From the IMG/VR virus record IMGVR_UViG_3300016480_000004: DNA of 10,100 bases; one strand, given 5' to 3'. The notes below the pieces were generated by a model that was given only the letters and a program-made list of their open reading frames with translations, ran no database searches and had not been told where the DNA came from. The stretch comes from a virus. Its lineage: Duplodnaviria > Heunggongvirae > Uroviricota > Caudoviricetes > Crassvirales. The position numbers and the translations under genes are program-made. This document shows, piece by piece, positions 1 to 10,100 of the stretch (position 1 is the stretch's first letter; each line of letters begins with the position of its first letter).

Positions 1-2
1 CT

Positions 3-1196
3 CCTTTCTATCTGGTATTCCCAGAAGACTGGTTTGCAGATGGTGAAGTTATTGTAGGTAACTTGAACCAAGTATATCCATTTAGAATCCTTGGTGATGC
101 AAGAATGGAAGGTACTAATGCAGTGTACAAAGTAGAACTTATGGGTGGTAATACTCAAGGTGTTCCTGCTGAAAGACTGCAACAAGGAGAAAGATTCTCT
201 ATTGAATTTGCTCCTGTAGAAAAAGAACTTTCAAGAAAGGTTGGTGATGTTAGATTCACTTCTCCTGTAAGCATGAGAAATGAATGGACTACAATCAGAA
301 TCCAACACAAGGTAGCTGGTAATAAGCTAAACAAGAAACTTGCTATGGGTATTCCTATGGTTAGAAATCTTGAAAGTGGAAAGCAAGTGAAGGACACTGC
401 AAACATGTGGATGCACTATGTAGATTGGGAAGTAGAACTTCAATTTGATGAGTACAAGAACAATGCTATGGCATGGGGTACTTCAAACAGAAATCTGAAT
501 GGTGAATACATGAACTTTGGTAAATCAGGTAATGCTATTAAGACTGGTGCTGGTATCTTTGAACAAACAGAGGTTGCTAATACTATGTACTACAATACAT
601 TCAGCTTGAAGTTGCTTGAAGATGCACTGTATGAACTGTCAGCTTCTAAACTTGCAATGGATGATAGACTCTTTGTAATCAAGACTGGTGAAAGAGGTGC
701 TATTCAGTTCCATAAGGAAGTATTGAAGACTGTATCTGGTTGGACTACATTTGTACTTGATAATAACTCTACAAGAGTTGTTGAGAAAGTTCAGTCAAGA
801 CTCCACAGCAATGCACTTGGTGCTGGTTTCCAATTTGTTGAGTACAAGGCTCCTAATGGTGTTAGGGTAAGATTGGATGTTGACCCATTCTATGATGACC
901 CAGTAAGAAACAAGATTCTTCACCCAATGGGTGGTGTAGCTTTCTCTTACAGATATGACATCTGGTATATTGGTACTATGGACCAACCTAATATCTTCAA
1001 GTGTAAGATTAAGGGTGACAATGAATACAGAGGATACCAGTGGGGTATTAGAAATCCTTTCACTGGGCAAAAGGGTAATCCTTATATGTCATTTGATGAG
1101 GACTCTGCTGTAATTCACAGAATGGCTACTTTGGGTGTTTGTGTGCTTGACCCAACAAGAACTATGTCATTAATTCCTGCAATTCTGCAAGGATAA
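3..1196 (+). CDS. Major capsid protein, 5'-truncated by the window edge (PhiCrAss001 gp32-like)
   Basis: The frame is open from base 3 (PFYLVFPEDWFADGEVIVGNLNQVYPFRILGD...), so the track start at 63 is not the real start. Crassvirales MCP-like motifs (RIQHKVAGNKLN, YRYDIWYIG, YQWGIRNPFTG, CVLDPTRT). High-expression codon bias; followed by a terminator. Confidence 0.92.
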   Translation, partial: PFYLVFPEDWFADGEVIVGNLNQVYPFRILGDARMEGTNAVYKVELMGGNTQGVPAERLQQGERFSIEFAPVEKELSRKVGDVRFTSPVSMRNEWTTIRIQHKVAGNKLNKKLAMGIPMVRNLESGKQVKDTANMWMHYVDWEVELQFDEYKNNAMAWGTSNRNLNGEYMNFGKSGNAIKTGAGIFEQTEVANTMYYNTFSLKLLEDALYELSASKLAMDDRLFVIKTGERGAIQFHKEVLKTVSGWTTFVLDNNSTRVVEKVQSRLHSNALGAGFQFVEYKAPNGVRVRLDVDPFYDDPVRNKILHPMGGVAFSYRYDIWYIGTMDQPNIFKCKIKGDNEYRGYQWGIRNPFTGQKGNPYMSFDEDSAVIHRMATLGVCVLDPTRTMSLIPAILQG

Positions 1197-1205
1197 GCAT
1201 AAAAT

Positions 1206-1245
1206 AAAAGGGGAGGGGAAATTCTCCCTCTCCTTTTTCTTTTTT
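1206..1245 (+). terminator. Intrinsic terminator after the MCP gene, possibly bidirectional
   Basis: Stem GGGGAGGGG (1210-1218) / TCCCTCTCC (1225-1233) with two G-U pairs and a 6-nt loop, followed by TTTTTCTTTTTT. An A-run precedes the stem. Confidence 0.88.
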
Positions 1246-1268
1246 AAGATATTAAATGGAGAAGTAAT

Positions 1269-2261
1269 ATGGCAAAAGAAGTTAGTAAGATGATTTTGGA
1301 TGAGGAAGAGATTATGAAGGAAACACCAGTTATATCTGATGTGGATAACCTTTTTGATGAACCAAAGACAAGAAAAACAAAGAAACAAGCAGTAATAGAA
1401 GACAATGATGAACCTATTAGCTGCCTAAGAAATGAAAGAGTTATAGTAAGGTTTGTTCCCAAGCAGACTGGTTTAGTTTCAAACCCTAAGCATATCCTAT
1501 ATGGAGGTATGGCAGAAGCAGCAGTAAGATGGTTTACTCTACCAAGATTAAGTTCTGGTATGTATGTAAATGCACTCACTGATAAAGAGAAAGCTTACCT
1601 TGAAGAGATAATGGGTCTTGAATACAATGCTCTATCTATCTATAAGAAGGTAGATAACTTCTGGGAGAATTATACAGTGAGATTAACTAAGCAAGATAAT
1701 TTCTTGAACTTGGCTGACCCTGATGATTATATCAAATATAAAATCCTTTTAGCAAACAAGGACTATATTGCATCTTCTCTTCAAGAGTTGCAAGACAGAC
1801 CTAAAATGACTTACCAGTTTGTAATTGTACAGGAAGGTGAAGAAGCTAAAACTGCTAAGAAGGAAATGAATGCTACAATGCAGTCATACATGAAGTTTGG
1901 TGAAATTCAAGATGATACTGATAAGCTGAGAGTAATCATTGAAACTATTGATGGTAAACCTCTTGCTAAGACAACTAAGATTGAATTCTTACAGGAGAAG
2001 ATTAACAAGCTAATTCAAGCTGACCCAAAACTTTTCTTAAGAGTCTCAGAAGACCCGTATCTTGATACTAAAGTTCTGATTAAGAAGGCTATTGAAGAAG
2101 GTCTAATTAGTAATAGAGGGGGTATGTTATACCTGAAATCTGATGGTTCTCCTCTATGTGGAGATAATGAAGAACCTACTTTAAGTGTAGCTGCTAAGTT
2201 CTTAAGTGCTCCTAAGAGACAGGAATTGAAGTTCAGTCTGGAAGCAAAGCTAAAAGGATAA
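1269..2261 (+). CDS. Conserved Crassvirales protein of unknown function directly downstream of MCP (gp33 position), 330 aa
   Basis: Long ORF with genome-typical codon use, an acidic low-complexity N-terminus and a helical Lys/Glu-rich body. Assigned by synteny only. Confidence 0.8.
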   Translation: MAKEVSKMILDEEEIMKETPVISDVDNLFDEPKTRKTKKQAVIEDNDEPISCLRNERVIVRFVPKQTGLVSNPKHILYGGMAEAAVRWFTLPRLSSGMYVNALTDKEKAYLEEIMGLEYNALSIYKKVDNFWENYTVRLTKQDNFLNLADPDDYIKYKILLANKDYIASSLQELQDRPKMTYQFVIVQEGEEAKTAKKEMNATMQSYMKFGEIQDDTDKLRVIIETIDGKPLAKTTKIEFLQEKINKLIQADPKLFLRVSEDPYLDTKVLIKKAIEEGLISNRGGMLYLKSDGSPLCGDNEEPTLSVAAKFLSAPKRQELKFSLEAKLKG

Positions 2262-2265
2262 AGAT

Positions 2266-2982
2266 ATGAATGTTAATGAATTTTCTAATGAATTTGATGT
2301 ACTCTATAACAACATAATGAGCAATGCTGCTCCGGGGTTAAATGAGTATGAAAAGTCTGTACTGCTTACTAAGGCTCAAGAAGAAACAGTTAAGAATCAT
2401 TTTGAACCCGCAGGTAATAAGTATGGAAAAGGATTAGATGATTCCCCAAAAAGACAAATAGATTTTTCAGAATTAATAAAGGTAGGGCAAGGAGTACTTA
2501 ATACAAGTGCTCCTACTATTACCTTTGATAAGGGAGCTAAGGTATATGATTTGCCTGCTGACTTATTCTTGGTTATAAATGAGGCTGTTGACACTAATGC
2601 AGGAACTAAACAGATAGTTCCAATCAGTTATTCTGATTATACAAGGCTTATGTCAAGACCCTATAAGGAACCAGTTAAATATCAGGCATGGAGAATAATT
2701 ACTACTTCTATAAACAATATCTCTGTAGAATTAATAGTAAACAGTAATGAAACTATTACAGACTATAAGGTAAGATATATAAGAAGACCTGCTCCAATTA
2801 TCACTACTAATCTATCTTCTGAATATGGTGATGTTACAATAAATGGTGTAAGCACTATTTCAGAATGTGAGCTTAACCCAATTATTCATAGTGAAATATT
2901 ACAGAGAGCAGTTGAATTGGCTAAGGTAGCTTACCAAGGAGACTTAAAGGCAAGTGTTGAATTAGGACAAAGAAGTGAATAA
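2266..2982 (+). CDS. Tail ring protein 4/5 (gp34-like), 238 aa
   Basis: N-terminus MNVNEFSNEFDVLYNNIMSNAAPGLNEYEKSVLLTKAQEE and C-terminal CELNPIIHSEILQRAVELA are typical of crAss ring (tail-barrel) proteins. Paralogous to the next ORF. Confidence 0.82.
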   Translation: MNVNEFSNEFDVLYNNIMSNAAPGLNEYEKSVLLTKAQEETVKNHFEPAGNKYGKGLDDSPKRQIDFSELIKVGQGVLNTSAPTITFDKGAKVYDLPADLFLVINEAVDTNAGTKQIVPISYSDYTRLMSRPYKEPVKYQAWRIITTSINNISVELIVNSNETITDYKVRYIRRPAPIITTNLSSEYGDVTINGVSTISECELNPIIHSEILQRAVELAKVAYQGDLKASVELGQRSE

Positions 2983-3674
2983 TGACTAATAAAGAATTTT
3001 CTGACGGATTCAGTACTTTACTTAACTCATTTGGTGTCACTCCTAATATAACCCTTGATGAATATGAGAAATCAACATTTCTCACTAATGCTCAAGAACA
3101 ATTAATTATTGACATCTACTCTGGAAGGAATATTATTTATGGTAAGTCCTTTGAACAGACAGAAGAAATAAGAAGATATTTGAGCAATTTGGTGGAGACC
3201 TATGAAACAAGTACTAAGGTTACAGGAAAGCTAGGATTATCAAAAGATTCAGTATTCTTTGAGATACCACAAGATACTTGGTTCATTACTTATGAAGTGG
3301 CATTCCTCAAGGATAGTAGATTAGGTTGCTTGGATGGTATAGAGGCAATTGTGGTTCCATTGCCACAGGATGATTTATATAGAGCAAAGGATAATCCATT
3401 TAGAGGACCAAGTAAAGACAGGGTACTAAGACTTGATATAAAAAGTGACTTAGCTGAGTTAATCAGCAAGTATAATGTGGACAAGTATTTAATGAGATAT
3501 ATCTCTCAACCAACTCCTATTATACTAGTAGATTTACCTGATGGACTAAGTATCAATGGTGTAAGTACTGAAAGTGAATGTGAACTAAATCCTGTAATAC
3601 ACAGAGCAATACTTGAAAGAGCTGTACAGCTTGCCATAATAAGTAAAACTCAACTGACAGGAAATAAAGAATAA
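2982..3674 (+). CDS. Tail ring protein 3 (gp35-like), 230 aa
   Basis: Shares EYEKSxxLTxAQE and INGVSTxSECELNPxIHxxILxRAVxLA with the previous ORF. TAATG stop/start coupling at 2980-2984. Confidence 0.82.
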   Translation: MTNKEFSDGFSTLLNSFGVTPNITLDEYEKSTFLTNAQEQLIIDIYSGRNIIYGKSFEQTEEIRRYLSNLVETYETSTKVTGKLGLSKDSVFFEIPQDTWFITYEVAFLKDSRLGCLDGIEAIVVPLPQDDLYRAKDNPFRGPSKDRVLRLDIKSDLAELISKYNVDKYLMRYISQPTPIILVDLPDGLSINGVSTESECELNPVIHRAILERAVQLAIISKTQLTGNKE

Positions 3675-3681
3675 ATATAAA

Positions 3682-3693
3682 TGTTTAATTAAA
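3682..3693 (+). promoter_or_regulatory. Leader motif TGTTTAATTAAA, probably an A/T-rich Bacteroidota translation-initiation element; second copy at 5849-5860
   Basis: Identical 12-mer ending 12 nt before ATG 3706 and 11 nt before ATG 5872. Confidence 0.45.
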
Positions 3694-3705
3694 CTAAAAA
3701 AGATT

Positions 3706-4710
3706 ATGGTAATTTCTATTAATCAAGTAAGACAGCTATATGTTGCAAAGGCTCTCAAAGCTAGTACAGCAGCCCTTACAAATGCTGGTGATATTGTACC
3801 AAAGGCAGATACAGCTAAGACTACTCTGTATTTTCAGTCTATGTCTCCTGCTGGGATTGTAGCAAGTGATAAGATTGACCTTAAGAATGTATTGAGTGCA
3901 AAGGCTACACCATCAGATGCTCTGGCTCATAAGCTGGTTAGATACTCAGTTACTCTTGATGCAGATGTATCTGCAACTCCTGTAGCAGGTCAGAATTATA
4001 TCTTGAGATTGGCTTTCAGACAATATATTGGTTTGTCAGAAGAAGACCAATACTTCAAGTACGGTGAAGTAATTGCAAGAAGTGGAATGACTGCATCAGA
4101 TTTCTACAAGAAGATGGCTATTTCTTTAGCTAAGAATCTTGAGAATAAGACAGAATCTACTCCTCTTGTGAATATCTATCTTGTAAGTGCAGCAGCAGCT
4201 TCTACTGATGTTCCAGTTACATCAGCTACTAAGGAATCAGATTTGACTGCAACTGACTACAATCAAATCATCATTGAAGAAACAGAACAACCTTGGGTTC
4301 TTGGTATGATGCCTCAGGCATTTATTCCTTTTACTCCTCAGTTCTTAACTATTACAGTTAATGGTGAAGATAGACTTTGGGGTGTTGCAACTGTAGTTAC
4401 ACCTACTAATACTGTTCCTGATGGACATCTTATTGCAGACCTTGAATACTTCTGTATGGGTGCAAGAGGTGACATCTACAGAGGAATGGGTTATCCTAAT
4501 ACTATTAAGACTACTTACTTGGTAGACCCAAGTGCAGTTTATGATGTACTGGATATTCACTATTTCTACACAGGAAGCAATGAATCAGTTCAGAAGTCTG
4601 AAAAGACTATTACACTGGTTGCTGTAGATGATGGTAGTCACACTGCAATGAATGCTCTAATTGGTGCTATCAACACTGCATCAGGGCTTACAATTGCTAC
4701 TTTATCCTAA
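3706..4710 (+). CDS. Auxiliary capsid protein (gp36-like), 334 aa
   Basis: N-terminus MVISINQVRQLYVAKALKA recognised from the PhiCrAss001 auxiliary capsid protein. Ala/Thr-rich, MCP-like codon bias, followed by a strong terminator. Confidence 0.85.
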   Translation: MVISINQVRQLYVAKALKASTAALTNAGDIVPKADTAKTTLYFQSMSPAGIVASDKIDLKNVLSAKATPSDALAHKLVRYSVTLDADVSATPVAGQNYILRLAFRQYIGLSEEDQYFKYGEVIARSGMTASDFYKKMAISLAKNLENKTESTPLVNIYLVSAAAASTDVPVTSATKESDLTATDYNQIIIEETEQPWVLGMMPQAFIPFTPQFLTITVNGEDRLWGVATVVTPTNTVPDGHLIADLEYFCMGARGDIYRGMGYPNTIKTTYLVDPSAVYDVLDIHYFYTGSNESVQKSEKTITLVAVDDGSHTAMNALIGAINTASGLTIATLS

Positions 4711-4725
4711 GTGATATAGCATTAG

Positions 4726-4761
4726 AAGGAGCATAGAATTAACTATGCTCCTTTTTTTTTT
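4726..4761 (+). terminator. Intrinsic terminator after the auxiliary capsid gene
   Basis: Perfect 11-bp stem AAGGAGCATAG (4726-4736) / CTATGCTCCTT (4743-4753), loop AATTAA, T-run 4752-4761. Confidence 0.93.
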
Positions 4762-4781
4762 ATCAATTAAAAATATGAACT

Positions 4782-5432
4782 ATGCTACATTTTAATGAAT
4801 TAAGAATAACACAAGATAACAGATTTCTTATTATAGATGTATCTGTAGATAATCAGGACTACTTTGATGATGTCCTATTGGATAGTATAGTCATTGATAC
4901 CCAAGATACTTTTGTGATGAATGGACCAAGTGATAACCCTCTTTATGTATATAATGTGGAGGATGCCTATGATTTAACCTATTCTCTTCCTGAGCAATCT
5001 AGTTGCAATCCAGTAAGAGTTGAGGAAGATGAATCATATTGTTTCACTTATGGCACACAACAAATGAAGAATGTAAGACTTGAATTGAATATTCAAGACT
5101 TAAAGGTTTCTCCTTGCAGTACTATGTTCTTTGTGTATGTGAAGTCTAAAGGTACTCCATCAACTGATACTCCATATGGATTTGATAAGGGACAAATAAT
5201 AGGTACTGTAATTAACTTACAGCCTATATACAAGCAGACTCTTAAGTATCTAAAGGAAGTAGAATGTGATTGTAATATACCGAAGGGCTTCATTGATATG
5301 ATACTTAAGTTAAAGGCAATTGAACTTTGTGTTAGAACAGGAAACTACCTACAAGCTATTAAGTACTGGAATAAGTTCTTTATAAAGAATAATTGCAAGT
5401 CTCCAACTTCTAATTGTGGGTGTTATGGATAA
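4782..5432 (+). CDS. Tail (fibre) hub protein A (gp38-like), 216 aa
   Basis: N-terminus MLHFNELRITQDNRFLIIDVSVDNQDYF; Cys-rich C-terminus; synteny. Confidence 0.78.
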   Translation: MLHFNELRITQDNRFLIIDVSVDNQDYFDDVLLDSIVIDTQDTFVMNGPSDNPLYVYNVEDAYDLTYSLPEQSSCNPVRVEEDESYCFTYGTQQMKNVRLELNIQDLKVSPCSTMFFVYVKSKGTPSTDTPYGFDKGQIIGTVINLQPIYKQTLKYLKEVECDCNIPKGFIDMILKLKAIELCVRTGNYLQAIKYWNKFFIKNNCKSPTSNCGCYG

Positions 5433-5769
5433 AATGCTTGAAATGTCTGAGGAAGCCATCACAAGATACTTTACTACTCTATCTCAATTTGGATATAAGA
5501 AGTACAGTGATGTAGATAAGATAATTGTTCTCTTCTTCATGGAAGAAATGTTAGCAGGAGAAATGTCTTATTATGTGACACAAGATGATTATAGAAATAT
5601 AGTCAATGCACTATACTGTCTGGCAGGAAGTACTTGTATGATAGACTTTCCAATGTTTGAGAGTTATGATACTTTGGTTCATTCTAACAATAGAACATTT
5701 GTACCAAGAATAACAGAGGATAGTATATTAAGAAGTAATGAGGATGATAACTTTAGAGTAGAAGCATAA
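5425..5769 (+). CDS. Tail hub protein B (gp39-like), about 114 aa from ATG 5425
   Basis: ATG 5425 overlaps the hub A stop (TAT GGA TAA / ATG GAT AAA) and gives MDKMLEMSEEAITRYF. Preferred over the GTG at 5416 in the track. Confidence 0.78.
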   Translation: MDKMLEMSEEAITRYFTTLSQFGYKKYSDVDKIIVLFFMEEMLAGEMSYYVTQDDYRNIVNALYCLAGSTCMIDFPMFESYDTLVHSNNRTFVPRITEDSILRSNEDDNFRVEA

Positions 5770-5806
5770 TAATACTTATACTTTATATACAAAAATAATA
5801 AAGACC

Positions 5807-5839
5807 TTGCTTATATAAGTTATAATACTTATATTTGCA
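5807..5839 (+). promoter_or_regulatory. Bacteroidota housekeeping-sigma promoter (-33 TTG, -7 TAnnTTTG)
   Basis: TTG at 5807-5809, a 20-nt spacer, then TATATTTG at 5830-5837 followed by CA. It lies in the 102-bp intergenic gap 34 nt upstream of the ring-2 ATG. Confidence 0.8.
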
Positions 5840-5871
5840 GGGTCTAATTGTTTAATTAAATATGTAAAACT

Positions 5872-6555
5872 ATGACATATAATGAAATTATATACATGTG
5901 TCTTGATGAATTGAAGCTATCCAGTGATGATAGTTTTTATACAAAAGACCATTTAATATTTCTGCTTGTAAAGTATAGGTCATTCTTACTGAAACAGAGA
6001 TATTCTGACATAAAGAAACAGATACCAGATAGTGACTATCAGAGTATATGTTTAGACCTTATGGAGGTTCCAGCTATTAGTGGAGAACCTTGTGAAGGTA
6101 GCTCCTATCTAAGAAGTAAGAATAAGGTTCCTACTACTATGATGATAGGTAATCCAAGAGTATATCCTATGGATTTCTATCAAGGGGAGATTACTTACAT
6201 AAGTAGAGATAGAATGAGGTATGTAGGTTATAATAAGTTCCTTAGAAATATAATCTACTGTTCAAAAGCTCCTGATGGGTATCTATATTTCAAGTCATGG
6301 AATCCTCAATTCCTGCATCTTGAGAAAGTGAGTTTCAATGCAATCTTTGAAGATGCTAAAGAAGCATCAGAATTAGCTTGTCCAGAAGAGAATGGTGCAA
6401 TATGCAAGTTAGAGGATAAGGAGTTTCCAATAGAAGATTCTTTAGTTCCTCCACTTATAGAGTTAGTAATGAAAGAATTAAGAGGTCCTGAGTATAGTCC
6501 TAAGGATGAACAGAATAATGCTCATGATGATTTGGATGATTTGAATAAGAGATGA
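5872..6555 (+). CDS. Tail ring protein 2 (gp40-like), 227 aa
   Basis: N-terminus MTYNEIIYMCLDELKLSSDDSFYTKDHLIFLL and C-terminal FPIEDSLVPPLIELVMKEL fit the ring-protein family. Only TGA stop in the window. Confidence 0.8.
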   Translation: MTYNEIIYMCLDELKLSSDDSFYTKDHLIFLLVKYRSFLLKQRYSDIKKQIPDSDYQSICLDLMEVPAISGEPCEGSSYLRSKNKVPTTMMIGNPRVYPMDFYQGEITYISRDRMRYVGYNKFLRNIIYCSKAPDGYLYFKSWNPQFLHLEKVSFNAIFEDAKEASELACPEENGAICKLEDKEFPIEDSLVPPLIELVMKELRGPEYSPKDEQNNAHDDLDDLNKR

Positions 6556-7112
6556 TGGAGACACTGGGGGAATTTAAAAGGAGGATAAAGAAGGTCAACC
6601 AACCAAGAAAGTATAAAGTAAGAAATTCATTGGGTGTATATGATGGATATAAGTATTACAGAAAGAATAAACCTGATAGTAAGGAGTATGTTCTCACTGA
6701 GTCACAATATTTTGCTATCATAAGAAAGATAAACTTACTTTTGGTTGATGAATTGTTGATGGGTAATGATGTCAGACTTCCTAAATCAATGGGTATTATT
6801 GAAGTAAGAAAGTATGACAGGAGAGTGAGGTTAGGAAAGGATGGAAAGATTCATACTAACCTTCCTATAGACTGGGATAGGACACTTAAACTATGGTATG
6901 AAGATGAAGAGGCTTTCAAAGATAAGACATTAGTTAGAGTAGAAGAGAGTGAAATCTTTAAGATATATTACAATAGAGAGTCAGCTACTTATAACAATAA
7001 ATCTTATTATGAATTCTTATTCAATAAAGATTTAAAGATAAGACTTAAACAAAGAATAAAGGAGGGTTTAATAGATGCTCCTTACTTAGAAAAGAAATTA
7101 AGATATGGTTAA
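6552..7112 (+). CDS. HU/IHF-like DNA-binding protein of Crassvirales tail modules, 185-186 aa
   Basis: The segment LLVDELLMGNDVRLPKSMGIIEVRKYDRR...YEFLFNKDLKIRLK fits the HU/IHF fold (GxxVxLxxxGxFEVR, long beta arm, final helix). Very basic. Start ATG 6552 or 6555 overlaps the ring-2 stop. Confidence 0.72.
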   Translation: MMETLGEFKRRIKKVNQPRKYKVRNSLGVYDGYKYYRKNKPDSKEYVLTESQYFAIIRKINLLLVDELLMGNDVRLPKSMGIIEVRKYDRRVRLGKDGKIHTNLPIDWDRTLKLWYEDEEAFKDKTLVRVEESEIFKIYYNRESATYNNKSYYEFLFNKDLKIRLKQRIKEGLIDAPYLEKKLRYG

Positions 7113-7812
7113 GACTTGGATAGTATATAAACATGTTTCTCCTTCTAATAAATTTTATGTAGGCATTACTTCTAAAGCTAATCCAAATGATAGGTGGAAT
7201 AATGGAAAGAATTATGTGGCATGTAAACATTTCTACAATGCTATTATAAAATATGGTTGGGATAATTTTGAACATATAATTATAGCTTCAGGTCTTGCAG
7301 AGAAAGCTGCTAAGGACTTAGAGAAGAAATTAATTAAAGATTATAAGAAACTTGGTATCTCTTATAATATAACTAATGGTGGAGATGGTCATAGTGTAAA
7401 ACATCTTACAGAATCCCATAAGAAGAAACTTTCTATAGCCCATAAAGGAAAGAAACTGTCTAAGGAGCATAGGAGCAAGATTGGAAGAAAAGGCAAGGTA
7501 GTATCTCAAGCTACTAAAAATAAGATTAGTATAGCTAACAAAGGCAAAAAGAAACCTATTGAATTAGTAGAATCTTTAAGGAAACATAATATTGGTCTTA
7601 AAAGAACCGATGAACACAAAAAGGCTATAGGGAAGGCTCATAGTAAGGCTGTCTTGCAAATTAAACCTGATGGTAATATTACCGAATTTGCCTCAGCTAT
7701 GGAGGCTGAGAGAGTTACTGGAGTATTTCATAATAGTATTAACAAATGTTGCCACTTAGTAATTAAATCTGCTGGTGGTTTTAAATGGAAATTTAAAAAT
7801 GGTACAGAATAA
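7105..7812 (+). CDS. Free-standing GIY-YIG homing endonuclease 1 with NUMOD3-type repeats and a C-terminal NUMOD1/IENR1-like HTH, 235 aa
   Basis: GIY-YIG-like motifs VY...YVG, Arg (DRW), Glu (DLEKKLI), Asn (SYNITNGG). Repeats such as ESHKKKLSIAHKGKK and QATKNKISIANKGKK. C-terminal KAVLQ...EFASAMEA...CC...AGGFKWKF. Confidence 0.88.
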   Translation: MVKTWIVYKHVSPSNKFYVGITSKANPNDRWNNGKNYVACKHFYNAIIKYGWDNFEHIIIASGLAEKAAKDLEKKLIKDYKKLGISYNITNGGDGHSVKHLTESHKKKLSIAHKGKKLSKEHRSKIGRKGKVVSQATKNKISIANKGKKKPIELVESLRKHNIGLKRTDEHKKAIGKAHSKAVLQIKPDGNITEFASAMEAERVTGVFHNSINKCCHLVIKSAGGFKWKFKNGTE

Positions 7813-8540
7813 TAATTTTGTAAATATAAGAGTAGTGCTTGATAGGTTACTAAGACACCCACTACTTACTGACCTCAACCTTGAGACAGCTATTCAATAT
7901 ACACTGGACTTTATTGGTGCAATGGGGCTTCCTAATGTCTATGTTGATAAGATAGAAACTATAGATATTAAGGAGTATAGAGGTGAACTTCCATGTGATT
8001 TAGTCTCTATTAATCAGGTCAGGTTACATAAGAATGGAATAGCACTTAGGGCAATGACTGATAATTTCAATGCCTATCCTACTCATGACCATGAAGGAGG
8101 AAATTGGGGAGAGAGGGGAGAACCTTCTTTCAAGACACAAGGTAGAGTAATATTCACTTCAATAAGACATGAGAAGATAGATATTAGTTATAAAGCTATT
8201 ATGTTGGATGATGAGGGTCTTCCTTTAATTCCGGATAACTCTATCTTCCTTAAAGCACTAGAACTATACATTAAGAAAGAATGGTTCACTATCCTTTTTG
8301 ATATGGGTAAGATAAGTCCTGCTGTACTAAATAATACTCAACAGTCTTATGCTTTTGTTGCTGGGCAGTGCAACAATGAGTTCTTAATTCCATCAGTTAG
8401 TGAGATGGAGGCAATAACAAATTCTTGGAACCAGTTAATTCCAAGAACTAATGAATTTAGATATGGATTCAAAAATCTTGGAAATAAAGAATACATCAGA
8501 AGTCACTAAGTGGACTATTTATAGACATGTTTCTCCTTCT
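7131..8540 (+). repeat. Dispersed direct repeat shared by the two endonuclease genes (identical 16-mer ACATGTTTCTCCTTCT at 7131-7146 and 8525-8540)
   Basis: Exact 16-mer plus further near-identical tracts: TTTATGTAGGyATTACyTCTAAAG, AAATATGGwTGGGATAAT, TCTCTTATAATATwACT and AAATGGAAATwTAAA. Confidence 0.85.
7799..8509 (+). CDS. Tail ring protein 1 / tail tubular protein (gp43-like), 236 aa from ATG 7799
   Basis: LDRLLRHPLLTDLNLETAIQYTLDF, ELPCDLVSINQVR, LPLIPDN and IPSVSEMEAI motifs. ATG 7799 (MVQNNNF) is preferred over GTG 7775 and overlaps the HEG1 stop by 14 nt. Confidence 0.85.
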   Translation: MVQNNNFVNIRVVLDRLLRHPLLTDLNLETAIQYTLDFIGAMGLPNVYVDKIETIDIKEYRGELPCDLVSINQVRLHKNGIALRAMTDNFNAYPTHDHEGGNWGERGEPSFKTQGRVIFTSIRHEKIDISYKAIMLDDEGLPLIPDNSIFLKALELYIKKEWFTILFDMGKISPAVLNNTQQSYAFVAGQCNNEFLIPSVSEMEAITNSWNQLIPRTNEFRYGFKNLGNKEYIRSH

Positions 8541-9125
8541 GGTAAGATTTATGTAGGTATTACCTCTAAAGAGATTAACAGAAGGTGGAGATATGGTACG
8601 GGGTACTCTAATTGTATTCTATTTCAAAATGCTATAGATAAATATGGATGGGATAATATAAAACACCAAGTTCTGTTTACAAACCTTACAGAAGAAAGAG
8701 CTAAGAATTTAGAGAAAGATTTAATAAGACATTATAAGAACTTAGGAGTCTCTTATAATATTACTGATGGAGGTGATGGTCACTTAGGTTGTAGTTGGAC
8801 TCCTACTGTACATACAAGAATTATATGGTCAACTCAAAGGAAAGATAGAAAGCTCTCAGAAGAACATAAGAAGAAGATTTCTGATACTATGAAAGGAATA
8901 CCTATGAGTAAAGATGTGTATATTAAAGGGGTAACTATAGTAAAAACCCTTTTAGCTAAACCAGTTATCCAACTCAGTTTAAGTGGGGAATTTATAAGAG
9001 AGTTTCCTTCTATAAAAGAAGCTGCAAGAAGTCTTAATATAAAATCTGATAGAGACATTATTAGATGTTGTAAGGGAGAAAGAAAATCCAGAGCTGGTTA
9101 TAAATGGAAATATAAAGATGAATAA
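8451..9125 (+). CDS. Free-standing GIY-YIG homing endonuclease 2 with one clear NUMOD3-type unit and a NUMOD1/IENR1-like HTH; start at 8451 or 8463
   Basis: IY...YVG, Arg (RRW), Glu (NLEKDLI), Asn (SYNITDGG); SEEHKKKISDTMKG; C-terminal KPVIQ...EFPSIKEAARSL...CC...RAGYKWKY. Paralogous to HEG1. Confidence 0.86.
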   Translation: MNLDMDSKILEIKNTSEVTKWTIYRHVSPSGKIYVGITSKEINRRWRYGTGYSNCILFQNAIDKYGWDNIKHQVLFTNLTEERAKNLEKDLIRHYKNLGVSYNITDGGDGHLGCSWTPTVHTRIIWSTQRKDRKLSEEHKKKISDTMKGIPMSKDVYIKGVTIVKTLLAKPVIQLSLSGEFIREFPSIKEAARSLNIKSDRDIIRCCKGERKSRAGYKWKYKDE

Positions 9126-9127
9126 AT

Positions 9128-10100
9128 ATGGCACTAAAGAAAGAACAACACTGGGTAAAGGGAATGCAGAGAGATTTATCTGTATCAAAATTTAATCCTG
9201 AATTTTGTTATGATGCACAAAACATTAGAATAACTGCAAGGGAACATGATACTTTACTAAGTGTTTCCAATGAAAAGGGTAATAAGGAGATACCATTACA
9301 ATCTCCTTCTGGAGACCCTGTAGCTATTGATGGAGTATTACTTGGACAGAATGTGCTTAATAACTATGTAACCCTTTTTACAAAGGGTACAAATGATAAT
9401 ATATACAGACTTGAGAATAAGGGTACTTATTTTGAGACTCTACTTCTATTCTCAGGTAATCTGAATTTTAGTACAGACTATCCTATTGAGAATATTGGTG
9501 TGTATGAAAATGATAATATTCAGAAGGTATATTGGATTGATGGATTAAATCAGTCAAGGGTCATTAATATTGTGGCTACAGATGATGTAAAGGCTAAATG
9601 GGATGATAATTCATTTAACTTTGTGCAGGACTTAGGTCTTAAAGAAACTGTTACAGTTACAAGAAATGACCTTGCAAGTGGTTTATTTTCATCAGGGGTA
9701 ATTCAGTATGCTTTCACTTATTATAATAAGTATGGGCAGGAGAGTAATATATTTTATACCTCTCCCCTTGAATATATATCCTTTGCAAGTAGAGGAGCCT
9801 CTCCAGAAGAGAAAGTAAGTAATAGCTTTACTATTACCATTGAGAATGCAGATACAAGATTTGACTATATAAGAGTTTACTCTATTCATAGAGCAAGCAT
9901 AAATGCTACTCCTAATGTACTTAATGTAGTAGATATTCCTATTAATTCTGTTATAGGAGCTACAACTACTCTAACTTATATAGATAATGGTACTACTGGA
10001 ACCAGTATAGACCCTACTGAACTATTATATGTAGGGGGTGAGGATGTAGTCTTTGGAACTATAACACAAAAAGATAATACTTTATTTTTAGGAAATGCTA
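9128..10100 (+). CDS. Muzzle / tail stabilisation protein (gp44-like), 3'-truncated by the window edge
   Basis: Not in the ORF track because there is no stop in the window. Manual translation from ATG 9128 is open for 324 codons: MALKKEQHWVKGMQRDLSVSKFNPEFCYDAQNIRITAREHDTLLSVSNEKGN...QKVYWIDGLNQSRVINI...QYAFTYYNKYGQESN...KDNTLFLGNA. Confidence 0.87.
   Translation, partial: MALKKEQHWVKGMQRDLSVSKFNPEFCYDAQNIRITAREHDTLLSVSNEKGNKEIPLQSPSGDPVAIDGVLLGQNVLNNYVTLFTKGTNDNIYRLENKGTYFETLLLFSGNLNFSTDYPIENIGVYENDNIQKVYWIDGLNQSRVINIVATDDVKAKWDDNSFNFVQDLGLKETVTVTRNDLASGLFSSGVIQYAFTYYNKYGQESNIFYTSPLEYISFASRGASPEEKVSNSFTITIENADTRFDYIRVYSIHRASINATPNVLNVVDIPINSVIGATTTLTYIDNGTTGTSIDPTELLYVGGEDVVFGTITQKDNTLFLGNA

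What the first reader, a model, noticed from the sequence alone, without database searches (positions are those of the whole stretch)
1..10100. Near-total CpG elimination, with every surviving CpG in a CCG/CGG context
Seen: scanning by eye I find only 10 CG dinucleotides, with C at 2056, 2333, 2409, 3005, 4062, 5281, 7608, 7683, 8232 and 8599. Roughly 250-300 are expected from my estimate of C about 15% and G about 19%, and GpC is plentiful. All 10 are preceded by C or followed by G, so they read CCG on one strand. ACGT, TCGA, ACGA/TCGT and GCG-containing contexts never occur; about 0.3^10 by chance on my estimate. There are no CGN Arg codons, but half the survivors span codon junctions and NNC-GNN junctions are depleted too, so tRNA supply alone does not explain it. 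The two mobile endonuclease genes obey the rule. Established: CpG methyltransferases (M.SssI type) drive CpG loss by 5mC deamination, and CpG preceded by C or followed by G is the non-stimulatory context for vertebrate TLR9. Inference: the phage is escaping or being mutated by a CG-recognising system with context preference. Candidates are a Bacteroidota CG-specific restriction/methylation or other defence system, a phage-encoded methylase, or more speculatively mammalian TLR9 sensing in the gut. I cannot tell whether this context rule has been described.
Basis: partly seen in the sequence, partly recalled or inferred. Interest (0 to 1): 0.8.

Follow-up and report, generated by a model that had tools for sequence, protein, structure and literature searches.

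The report
CpG purge in a crAss001-like phage
This gut Bacteroides phage has lost about 95% of its CG dinucleotides, apparently through ongoing selection that also removes many restriction sites; the 'only CCG/CGG survives' rule is mostly a sampling effect plus a repair-driven CCGG hotspot, and mammalian TLR9 is not the cause.

Summary
The count is exact: 10 CG where 285 are expected (O/E 0.04), all in CCG/CGG. The window belongs to a 93.8-kb Kehishuvirus (crAss001-like) genome with O/E 0.09. crAss001 has 0.03; its hosts have 0.93-0.98.

Depletion affects CGN, NCG, codon junctions and intergenic DNA. Relatives' CGN arginine codons are AGR here (114/114), which deamination cannot do silently. 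The clade consensus has 2 CpG in 11.5 kb. Individual CpGs are young T->C creations that occur but do not spread, with an 8-15-fold deficit even on branches under 2% long. I read this as purifying selection on CG in DNA.

It travels with near-total loss of GATC, GGCC, CTAG, CTGCAG, CCWGG and other restriction sites. The agent reading CG is unidentified.

The context rule fails genome-wide (117/261). Creation and persistence of CpG are context-neutral except for a CTGG->CCGG hotspot (44-fold in one lineage). That fits host Vsr/C5-methylase repair.

TLR9 is refuted: five human-gut Crassvirales and three Bacteroides siphoviruses are not depleted, while an aquatic Flavobacterium phage is. No C5-methylase was found in the phage.

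The scan had already reached the same selection reading on a soil crAss-like phage (e1-5434412).

The parts
1..10100 (.). CpG-purged structural-gene block: 10 CG against 285 expected, no CGN codons, 97% coding
3..1196 (+). Major capsid protein, C-terminal 397 aa; no CpG
   Evidence: Pfam PF23898, E 3e-182
3706..4710 (+). Auxiliary capsid protein; one junction CpG at 4062 (ACGG), ATGG in 57 relatives
   Evidence: PF25650
4782..5432 (+). Tail hub protein A; CpG at 5281 (CCG Pro codon), CCAA in 26 relatives
   Evidence: PF25724
5872..6555 (+). Tail ring protein 2; no CpG
   Evidence: PF25702
7105..7812 (+). GIY-YIG/NUMOD3 homing endonuclease; two junction CpGs (7608, 7683); aligned in only 3-4 of 80 relatives, so it is mobile
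   Evidence: PF01541, PF07460
7775..8509 (+). Tail ring protein 1 (C-terminal part matches the family); CCGG at 8231-8234, derived from CCAG
   Evidence: PF24228
8451..9125 (+). Second GIY-YIG/NUMOD1 homing endonuclease; CpG at 8599 (ACG codon), ATGG in relatives
   Evidence: PF01541, PF07453
9128..10099 (+). Muzzle protein, N-terminal part; no CpG
   Evidence: PF25731
2332..2335 (.). CCGG site polymorphic in the clade (CCGG 27-28, CCAG 23, CCTG 22 among relatives); the most persistent CpG in the window
3004..3007 (.). ACGG, derived by T->C from ATGG (31 relatives ATGG, 1 ACGG)

Best explanation
The window is part of a virulent crAss001-like (Kehishuvirus) phage whose whole lineage is under continuing purifying selection against the CG dinucleotide in its DNA. 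Shown: CpG is removed at every codon position and in intergenic DNA. It is removed by synonymous recoding, including CGN->AGR. New CpGs keep arising by ordinary T->C transitions and are lost before they spread. CpG loss comes together with near-complete loss of a dozen classic restriction sites that are methylation motifs in the Bacteroides fragilis group. Inferred: the selective agent is a DNA-targeting host defence that reads CG itself, or a very loose CG-core target, with each site adding a small risk. That would explain why removal is about 95-97% and not absolute. It would also explain why freshly imported CpG-normal modules (distal tail-fibre domains) and constrained RNAs (tRNAs, a tRNA-like element) are tolerated. 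The apparent CCG/CGG rule is not a property of that agent. It is a small-sample run (four of the ten are CCG Pro codons), added to a real creation bias at CTGG/CCAG->CCGG. That bias is the footprint expected from host very-short-patch (Vsr) repair coupled to a CCGG m5C-methylase.
For: Depth and breadth: O/E is 0.04 in the window, 0.09 in the genome and 0-0.15 per gene. It is 0.03 in crAss001 and 0.01-0.10 in 59 of 75 related IMG/VR loci. Not host mimicry: B. intestinalis 0.93, B. cellulosilyticus 0.98. Not codon- or tRNA-driven: CGN 19/1210 Arg, NCG 1-2%, junction ratio 0.07, intergenic 0.13. Selection, not deamination: in aligned orthologous codons CGN/Arg falls from 20.9% to 0/839, NCG from 2.8% to 0.7% and junctions from 0.50 to 0.05. 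All 114 conserved Arg that are CGN in relatives are AGR here. Population evidence: the clade consensus has 2 CpG in 11,483 columns, and 151 derived CpG sites are mostly private. CpG-creating T->C changes are polymorphic at 9.8% of opportunities against 34-45% elsewhere, and stay rare. Singletons are near normal but shared variants are 5-fold down. On 23 terminal branches under 2.2% long the deficit is 15-fold, and 8-fold for isolated changes. Restriction context: GATC 1, GGCC 2, CTAG 25, CTGCAG 0, CAGCTG 0, GAGCTC 0, CCWGG O/E 0.08. New GATC/GGCC/CTAG sites also stay rare. CpG O/E co-varies with these sites (rho 0.53-0.73). GATC, CTGCAG, CTAG, GGCC and CCGG are methylated motifs in the host group (PMC10333322). 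CCGG hotspot: 45 of 60 CpGs in L041 are CCGG, and all are CTGG/CCAG in relatives. The rate is 36.5% against 0.82% background and 1/1532 at other TG sites. Vsr genes sit next to C5-MTases in both named hosts.
Against: No enzyme or defence system that recognises bare CG is known in bacteria, and none was identified here. Phages on the same host species range from O/E 0.02 to 1.36, so the host alone does not set the trait. The genome carries an island with 81 CpGs and is evidently viable. That island lacks GATC and CTAG but keeps CpG, so the avoidances are separable. Recombination among already-depleted lineages could inflate the short-branch deficit, although the isolated-change filter keeps it. 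An intrinsically low T->C rate at TpG cannot be formally excluded. The relatives compared are not phylogenetically independent.
Confidence: 0.6

Rival explanations
1. Sum of many ordinary restriction-modification specificities. The Bacteroides pan-immune system holds hundreds of motifs, and enough of them contain CG that a phage roaming among strains loses CG in every context, without any single CG reader.
For: 639 methylation motifs were reported in 268 B. fragilis-group genomes (PMC10333322). The phage has purged a dozen or more specific sites. The host itself under-represents TCGA, GCGC, CGCG and ACGT.
Against: All ten NCGN classes are depleted roughly 10-50-fold, including contexts with no known 4-bp enzyme (ACGA/TCGT, ACGG/CCGT, CCGA/TCGG). 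CG-containing palindromes are not depleted beyond their trinucleotide expectation (Markov O/E 0.5-1.5). GpC, AT and TA, the other self-complementary steps, are normal.
Confidence: 0.15
2. Mutational decay. Phage cytosines in CpG are methylated by an M.SssI/M.MpeI-type enzyme from host or phage and deaminate to T faster than they are repaired.
For: TpG and CpA are mildly over-represented (1.10-1.11). Junction C|G in relatives is mostly T|G here. Hosts carry C5-MTases.
Against: There is no C5-MTase in this phage or five relatives. Host chromosomes have O/E 0.93-0.98. Host MTases resemble M.HhaI/Dcm, or match only the catalytic core, and are not M.MpeI-like. No CG-core motif was found in the stored host-group methylome tables. 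CGN, which deamination cannot remove silently, is the most depleted class and is replaced by AGR. The TG/CA excess accounts for only about 40% of the missing CpG, while AG/CT excess is larger. A 93% loss of new CpGs on branches under 2% long would need hypermutability of roughly 1000-fold (my estimate).
Confidence: 0.1
3. RNA-level or translational selection: a CG-reading RNase, an mRNA-structure effect, or codon adaptation to the phage's own tRNA set (tRNA-Arg UCU).
For: The phage encodes 24 tRNAs including Arg(UCU) and none reading CGN. The genome is 89-97% coding and probably fully transcribed.
Against: Codon-junction CpGs, which no tRNA reads, are depleted 14-fold. Intergenic DNA is depleted (O/E 0.13). 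The trait travels with loss of DNA palindromes such as GATC and CTGCAG.
Confidence: 0.07
4. Phage-intrinsic cause: either self-avoidance of a phage-encoded nuclease that shreds CpG-rich host DNA, or a replication bias of the phage polymerase.
For: The trait follows phage lineage more than host. On B. thetaiotaomicron, DAC17 has 0.02, DAC20 0.12 and SJC12 1.36. The depleted phages are large and virulent, with their own replication genes and several nucleases.
Against: 84-261 residual CpGs and an 81-CpG island would be self-targets. Family-A polymerase occurs in both depleted (IAS, DAC17) and undepleted (cr128_1, cr108_1) phages. Singleton CpG-creating changes arise at a near-normal rate.
Confidence: 0.05
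5. Evasion of mammalian TLR9 sensing of unmethylated CpG in the gut.
For: The phage lives in the human gut.
Against: Human-faecal Crassvirales cr128_1, cr108_1, cr113_1, cr10_1 and cr6_1 have O/E 0.42-0.59. Gut or sewage Bacteroides siphoviruses B40-8, B124-14 and SJC12 have 1.18-1.36. Aquatic Flavobacterium phage FPSV-D24 has 0.10. The context bias vanishes against the host baseline and in the population data. Any benefit would be shared by all phages in the gut, so it would not select on single sites (inference).
Confidence: 0.02

Closest known systems
Restriction-site (palindrome) avoidance in virulent phage genomes (Sharp 1986; Rocha, Danchin & Viari 2001; Rusinov et al. 2018; cited from my own knowledge)
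   Same: Short self-complementary DNA words are removed by selection in the phage but not in the host. Here GATC, GGCC, CTAG, CTGCAG, CAGCTG, GAGCTC and CCWGG are purged alongside CG, and new sites arise but stay rare.
   Different: The target is only two bases long. No restriction enzyme or other bacterial nuclease with bare CG specificity is known. Depletion is about 95-97%, not complete.
CpG under-representation tied to CpG-specific methyltransferases M.SssI/M.MpeI in Mollicutes (Wojciechowski et al. 2013, cited in PMC11282364)
   Same: Strong genome-wide CpG deficit in a low-GC prokaryote-associated genome.
   Different: No such methylase was found in phage or host. The host is not depleted. 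CGN codons are replaced by AGR, not by deamination products.
CpG suppression in vertebrate viruses (ZAP, TLR9) and vertebrate genomes
   Same: Comparable or stronger numerical depletion, achieved by synonymous recoding.
   Different: The replication host is a bacterium, and the distribution among phages does not follow vertebrate association.
Very-short-patch repair bias in E. coli: CTWGG->CCWGG by Vsr coupled to Dcm (Bhagwat & McClelland 1992; Merkl et al. 1992; from my own knowledge)
   Same: T->C changes occur strictly within the methylase site context. CTGG/CCAG->CCGG runs at 36.5% of sites in L041, 44-fold above background. Vsr lies next to a C5-MTase in the hosts. CCGG is 2.2-fold over-represented in the host and 2-3.4-fold in Bacteroides siphoviruses.
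   Different: It is seen here in phage DNA, for a CCGG site, and working against a background purge of CpG. The specificity of the host methylases was not determined.
Earlier finding of this scan, e1-5434412: selection-driven CpG purge in a soil crAss-like phage
   Same: Same phenomenon and same reading (an unidentified reader of CG), and it mentions crAss001.
   Different: A different genome and habitat. The present work adds the context analysis, the CCGG/Vsr hotspot, the coupling with restriction-site loss, the host baselines and the short-branch test.

Membership tests
Restriction-target avoidance in phage genomes | Target word far below composition and Markov expectation in the phage | tested here: met
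   CG O/E 0.04 (window), 0.09 (genome), 0.03 (crAss001)
Restriction-target avoidance in phage genomes | Host chromosome does not share the depletion | tested here: met
   B. intestinalis 0.93, B. cellulosilyticus 0.98
Restriction-target avoidance in phage genomes | Depletion maintained by purifying selection, not by mutation bias | tested here: met
   CGN->AGR at 114/114 conserved Arg. New CpGs arise but do not spread. The deficit is 8-15-fold on short branches. Recombination is a caveat.
Restriction-target avoidance in phage genomes | A cognate host nuclease recognising the avoided word | not testable with these tools
   No CG-specific nuclease is known. For the co-avoided GATC, CTGCAG, CTAG and GGCC, methylation is documented in the host group (PMC10333322).
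5mC-deamination CpG decay (M.SssI/M.MpeI type) | A CpG-specific C5-methyltransferase in phage or host | tested here: not met
   PF00145 is absent from this phage and five relatives. Host C5-MTases are not M.MpeI-like. No CG-core motif was found in the stored host-group methylome tables (some files were truncated).
5mC-deamination CpG decay (M.SssI/M.MpeI type) | CGN codons least depleted, and a TpG/CpA excess matching the deficit | tested here: not met
   CGN is the most depleted class (0/839). TG/CA O/E is only 1.10-1.11, while AG/CT is 1.29-1.31.
TLR9 evasion | Depletion tracks vertebrate-gut association | tested here: not met
   Eight gut or sewage phages are undepleted, and an aquatic Flavobacterium phage is depleted.
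TLR9 evasion | Survivors confined to non-stimulatory CCG/CGG contexts | tested here: not met
   117/261 genome-wide. 40.6% excluding CCGG across about 70 genomes, against 39.7% of opportunities.
Vsr-type very-short-patch repair footprint (for the CCGG hotspot only) | T->C confined to the methylase site context | tested here: met
   CTGG 31/85; other TG contexts 1/1532; TH 56/6870.
Vsr-type very-short-patch repair footprint (for the CCGG hotspot only) | Vsr endonuclease with a C5-MTase in the host, and CCGG methylation present | tested here: inconclusive
   Vsr is present in 5 of 5 Bacteroidaceae genomes, and adjacent to a C5-MTase in three. A CCGG motif is listed in the host-group methylomes. 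The specificity of these particular enzymes and the host of L041 are unknown.

The most novel reading that the evidence does not exclude
Bacteroidota, and perhaps other bacteria, possess a still-unidentified DNA-targeting defence that reads the bare CG dinucleotide, or CG density, in invading DNA. Several virulent phage lineages have purged CpG convergently to escape it: Kehishuvirus, Wulfhauvirus and Paundivirus crAss-like phages, the 179-kb B. thetaiotaomicron phage DAC20, and Flavobacterium Fipvunavirus.
Probability: 0.35. Interest if true: 0.85.

Novelty: new variant of a known kind. Interest (0 to 1): 0.6.

Why it matters
Forni et al. 2024 (PMC11282364) state that phages tend to copy their hosts' CpG content and that no bacterial defence is known to target CpG. 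This lineage breaks that rule about 30-fold, apparently through selection, so it points to an unrecognised reader of CG in DNA. The system is tractable, because crAss001 and B. intestinalis are both cultured.

There are also practical consequences:
- k-mer-based host prediction will fail for these phages.
- CpG density maps recent imports, and here it marks the swapped distal tail-fibre domain to within a few hundred bases.
- Engineered DNA for Bacteroides or crAss-like phages may need to avoid CG as well as GATC, CTGCAG and the other purged sites.
- The CCGG hotspot shows host Vsr-type repair rewriting a phage genome at about 40 times the background rate, which could serve as a marker of past host usage.

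Tried and rejected
1. The context rule as a property of selection: rejected.
2. Cellular origin of the CpG-rich island: the search for related loci in genome contigs found nothing. Only the N-terminal anchor of the fibre matches crAss001-type fibres.
3. Phage C5-methylase: none.
4. Host CpG-methylase: no M.MpeI-like enzyme.
5. DNA polymerase family (PolA against PolB) as the correlate: rejected, because PolA occurs in both states and no PF00136 match was found.
6. Gene-content contrast with a complete undepleted relative (G011): uninformative. 41 genes differ and median aa identity is 42%.
7. CpG-loss spectrum in shared islands: not possible, because the islands are private to single genomes.
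10. p-crAssphage could not be fetched under the two accessions I tried.
11. Literature searches for a prior description of CpG loss in crAss-like phages found none in the held library. The crAss001 paper does not mention it.

Full report
**Observation.** There are ten CG dinucleotides, with C at 2056, 2333, 2409, 3005, 4062, 5281, 7608, 7683, 8232 and 8599. The window has 1425 C and 2023 G, so 285 are expected and O/E is 0.04, while GpC is 254 (0.89). All ten are preceded by C or followed by G. The window is 97% coding. All 143 arginine codons are AGA or AGG. Five CpGs span codon junctions and five are NCG codons, four of them the proline codon CCG. The two mobile genes are GIY-YIG/NUMOD homing endonucleases at 7105-7812 and 8451-9125, and they hold three of the ten CpGs. 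The other genes are the major capsid protein, auxiliary capsid protein, tail hub A, ring proteins 2 and 1, and the muzzle protein.

**What the sequence is.** The window is bases 83735-93834 of a 93,834-bp virus record. It is 92-95% identical to Kehishuvirus phages (crAss001, PhiCrAssBcn isolates, 'tikkala') that infect Bacteroides intestinalis and B. cellulosilyticus.

**Extent of the depletion.**
- The whole genome has 261 CpGs against 2889 expected (O/E 0.09).
- Per-gene values are 0.00-0.15 almost everywhere.
- crAss001 is more extreme, with 84 CpGs in 100 kb (0.03).
- Of 75 related IMG/VR loci, 59 lie below 0.10.
- In core genes, CGN is 19 of 1210 Arg codons, NCG is 1-2% of its codon families, and the C|G codon-junction ratio is 0.07.
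- Intergenic DNA has O/E 0.13 once one RNA-bearing spacer is excluded.

**Exceptions.**
- The tRNA array.
- A spacer at genome 54.1-55.0 kb, which holds a tRNA-like element beside the TROVE/Ro60-like gene.
- A 6-kb tail-fibre block at genome 74232-80150, with per-gene O/E 0.31, 0.55 and 0.98. Only the N-terminal anchor of its large protein matches crAss001-type fibres. The CpGs cluster in the foreign distal part, so CpG density marks a recent import.

Many relatives carry their own private CpG-rich islands in the same region.

**Hosts and other phages.**
- 200 kb of B. intestinalis chromosome has O/E 0.93, and 42 kb of B. cellulosilyticus has 0.98. This phage therefore departs about 30-fold from the published tendency of phages to resemble their hosts in CpG content (PMC11282364).
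- Depleted phages: IAS virus 0.08, DAC17 0.02, cr112_1 0.07, the 179-kb B. thetaiotaomicron phage DAC20 0.12, and the aquatic Flavobacterium psychrophilum phage FPSV-D24 0.10.
- Undepleted phages: human-faecal Crassvirales cr128_1, cr108_1, cr113_1, cr10_1 and cr6_1 (0.42-0.59), marine Cellulophaga phage phi14:2 (0.49), B. fragilis siphoviruses B40-8 and B124-14 (1.2), and B. thetaiotaomicron phage SJC12 (1.36).

Neither gut habitat nor host species predicts the trait. I did not re-test that genome.

**Selection or mutation.** Three lines of evidence favour selection.

1. Codon classes in orthologous codons aligned to undepleted relatives (capsid 83-84% identical):

| Class | Undepleted relatives | This phage |
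|---|---|---|
| CGN among Arg codons | 20.9% | 0 of 839 |
| NCG among NCN codons | 2.8% | 0.7% |
| C\|G junction ratio | 0.50 | 0.05 |

At all 114 conserved Arg positions where relatives use CGN, this phage uses AGR. Deamination turns CGN into Cys, Trp, stop, His or Gln codons. Under a methylation-decay model CGN should therefore be the most persistent class. Here it is the most depleted.

2. Population data. The consensus of about 70 depleted genomes has 2 CpGs in 11,483 aligned columns, yet 151 different derived CpG sites are scattered among individual genomes, 68% of them from TG or CA. Nine of the window's ten CpGs are such young changes. Relatives carry ATGG, CCAG, CCAA, CAGT and similar at those places. 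T->C changes that create CpG are polymorphic at 9.8% of opportunities, against 34-45% for the same change elsewhere. Only 2% of them pass 10% frequency, against 28-43%. Private changes are almost normal in number (8.4% against 11.5%), but shared ones are 5-fold down.

3. Short branches. On 23 terminal branches of 0-2.1% divergence, CpG-creating T->C changes occur at 0.023% of opportunities against 0.338% elsewhere (p = 1e-22). For isolated changes the figures are 2 of 22,111 against 63 of 89,659 (p = 1e-4). By my estimate, back-mutation could remove that many only with hypermutability of about a thousand-fold.

Caveats: recombination among depleted lineages, and non-independence of the genomes.

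**Company it keeps.**
- The core genome has 1 GATC (about 285 expected), 2 GGCC, 25 CTAG, no CTGCAG, CAGCTG or GAGCTC, and CCWGG at O/E 0.08. GATATC, CCATGG, GTATAC, ATGCAT, GGTACC and CTGAAG are almost gone.
- Undepleted relatives keep these sites.
- Across the 75 loci, CpG O/E correlates with GATC, GGCC and CTAG O/E (rho 0.53-0.73).
- New GATC, GGCC and CTAG sites behave like new CpGs: they are present but rare.
- GATC and CTGCAG are methylated in all five species of the B. fragilis group, and CTAG, GGCC and CCGG are also listed there (PMC10333322).

The CpG purge is thus embedded in an unusually complete restriction-avoidance profile. It is still a dinucleotide-level effect. All ten NCGN classes are depleted, CG-containing palindromes are not depleted beyond their trinucleotide expectation, and GpC is normal. 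The island lacks GATC and CTAG but keeps CpG, so the avoidances can be uncoupled.

**The context rule.**
- Genome-wide, 117 of 261 CpGs are CCG/CGG.
- In the core the share is 53%, against 37% from neighbour frequencies (p = 4e-5). That equals the host's own 53.5%, and the ranking of the ten NCGN classes matches the host's (Spearman 0.89).
- In the population data, CpG creation is context-neutral (40.4% against 39.7% of opportunities), and CCG/CGG sites persist no better than others (p = 0.53).
- A run of ten somewhere in this genome has p = 0.12.

The one real context effect is CCGG. In locus L041, 45 of 60 CpGs are CCGG, and every one is CTGG or CCAG in relatives 90-96% identical. The T->C rate there is 31 of 85 at CTGG, against 56 of 6870 at non-CpG-creating sites and 1 of 1532 at other TG sites. 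A rate 44-fold above background is a mutational drive, not relaxed selection. It matches the known effect of Vsr very-short-patch repair coupled to a C5-methylase. All five Bacteroidaceae genomes examined encode Vsr. It is adjacent to a C5-MTase in B. intestinalis, B. cellulosilyticus and B. xylanisolvens. CCGG is 2.2-fold over-represented in the host and 2-3.4-fold in Bacteroides siphoviruses.

**Candidates excluded or weakened.**
- There is no C5-methylase in this phage or in five relatives, and none is annotated in crAss001.
- Host C5-MTases are M.HhaI/Dcm-like or match only the catalytic core, and none is M.MpeI-like.
- No CG-core motif appears in the stored methylome tables of the host group.
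- DNA polymerase family does not track the trait.

**Verdict.** The depletion is real, lineage-wide, and best explained by purifying selection on CG in DNA as part of extreme avoidance of host nuclease targets. What reads CG remains unknown. The CCG/CGG rule and the TLR9 idea do not survive testing. The CCGG/Vsr hotspot is a separate and well-supported by-product. I found no published description of the purge in the held library, but the scan had already noted it in this genome and in another crAss-like phage.

Noticed in passing
genome 74232-80150 (upstream of the window; L001:4232-10150): Tail-fibre block with near-normal CpG (81 CpGs; per-gene O/E 0.31, 0.55, 0.98) but 0 GATC and 3 CTAG. 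Only the N-terminal 284 aa of the 985-aa protein match crAss001-type fibres, and the CpGs cluster in the foreign distal part. It is a recent import from a donor that avoided GATC and CTAG but not CpG.
   Followed up: partly
whole genome and crAss001 (L003, L004): Near-total absence of GATC, GGCC, CTAG, CTGCAG, CAGCTG, GAGCTC, CCWGG, GATATC, CCATGG, GTATAC, ATGCAT, GGTACC and CTGAAG. Undepleted relatives keep these sites.
   Followed up: yes
L041 (IMGVR_UViG_3300045988_042106), whole 21-kb locus: 45 of 60 CpGs are CCGG, each corresponding to CTGG or CCAG in close relatives. The T->C rate at CTGG is 36.5%, 44 times background. L030 shows a milder version (33 CCGG) and also tolerates GGCC.
   Followed up: yes
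genome 54675-54783, minus strand (L002:4675-4783): A tRNA-like element (Rfam tRNA, 40 bits) in a CpG-rich 0.9-kb spacer next to the TROVE/Ro60-like gene (genome 55019-56437). It may be a Y-RNA/YrlA-type partner RNA.
   Followed up: no
window 6552-9125: The ring-1 region is bracketed by two GIY-YIG homing endonucleases. Only residues 114-242 of ORF 7775-8509 match the ring-1 family, and ORF 6552-7112 has no Pfam match, so the gene may be split or carry an intron.
   Followed up: no
G011 (L250-L254; IMGVR_UViG_3300025575_000001), 17730-17803: This complete undepleted relative (CpG O/E 0.37, no restriction-site avoidance) carries a tRNA with anticodon CTA, an amber suppressor that suggests TAG recoding. 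It has only 4 tRNAs, against 24 in this phage.
   Followed up: no
genome about 82409 (ORF 82212-83381, upstream of the window): The only CpG fixed in all 67 aligned depleted genomes (context GCGT). It may be functionally constrained.
   Followed up: no
L248 (Bacteroides phage DAC20, MT074140, 1-12000): A 179-kb B. thetaiotaomicron phage with G+C of only 21%, CpG O/E 0.12 and GATC O/E 0.17. It is an unrelated large phage showing the same pair of avoidances.
   Followed up: no
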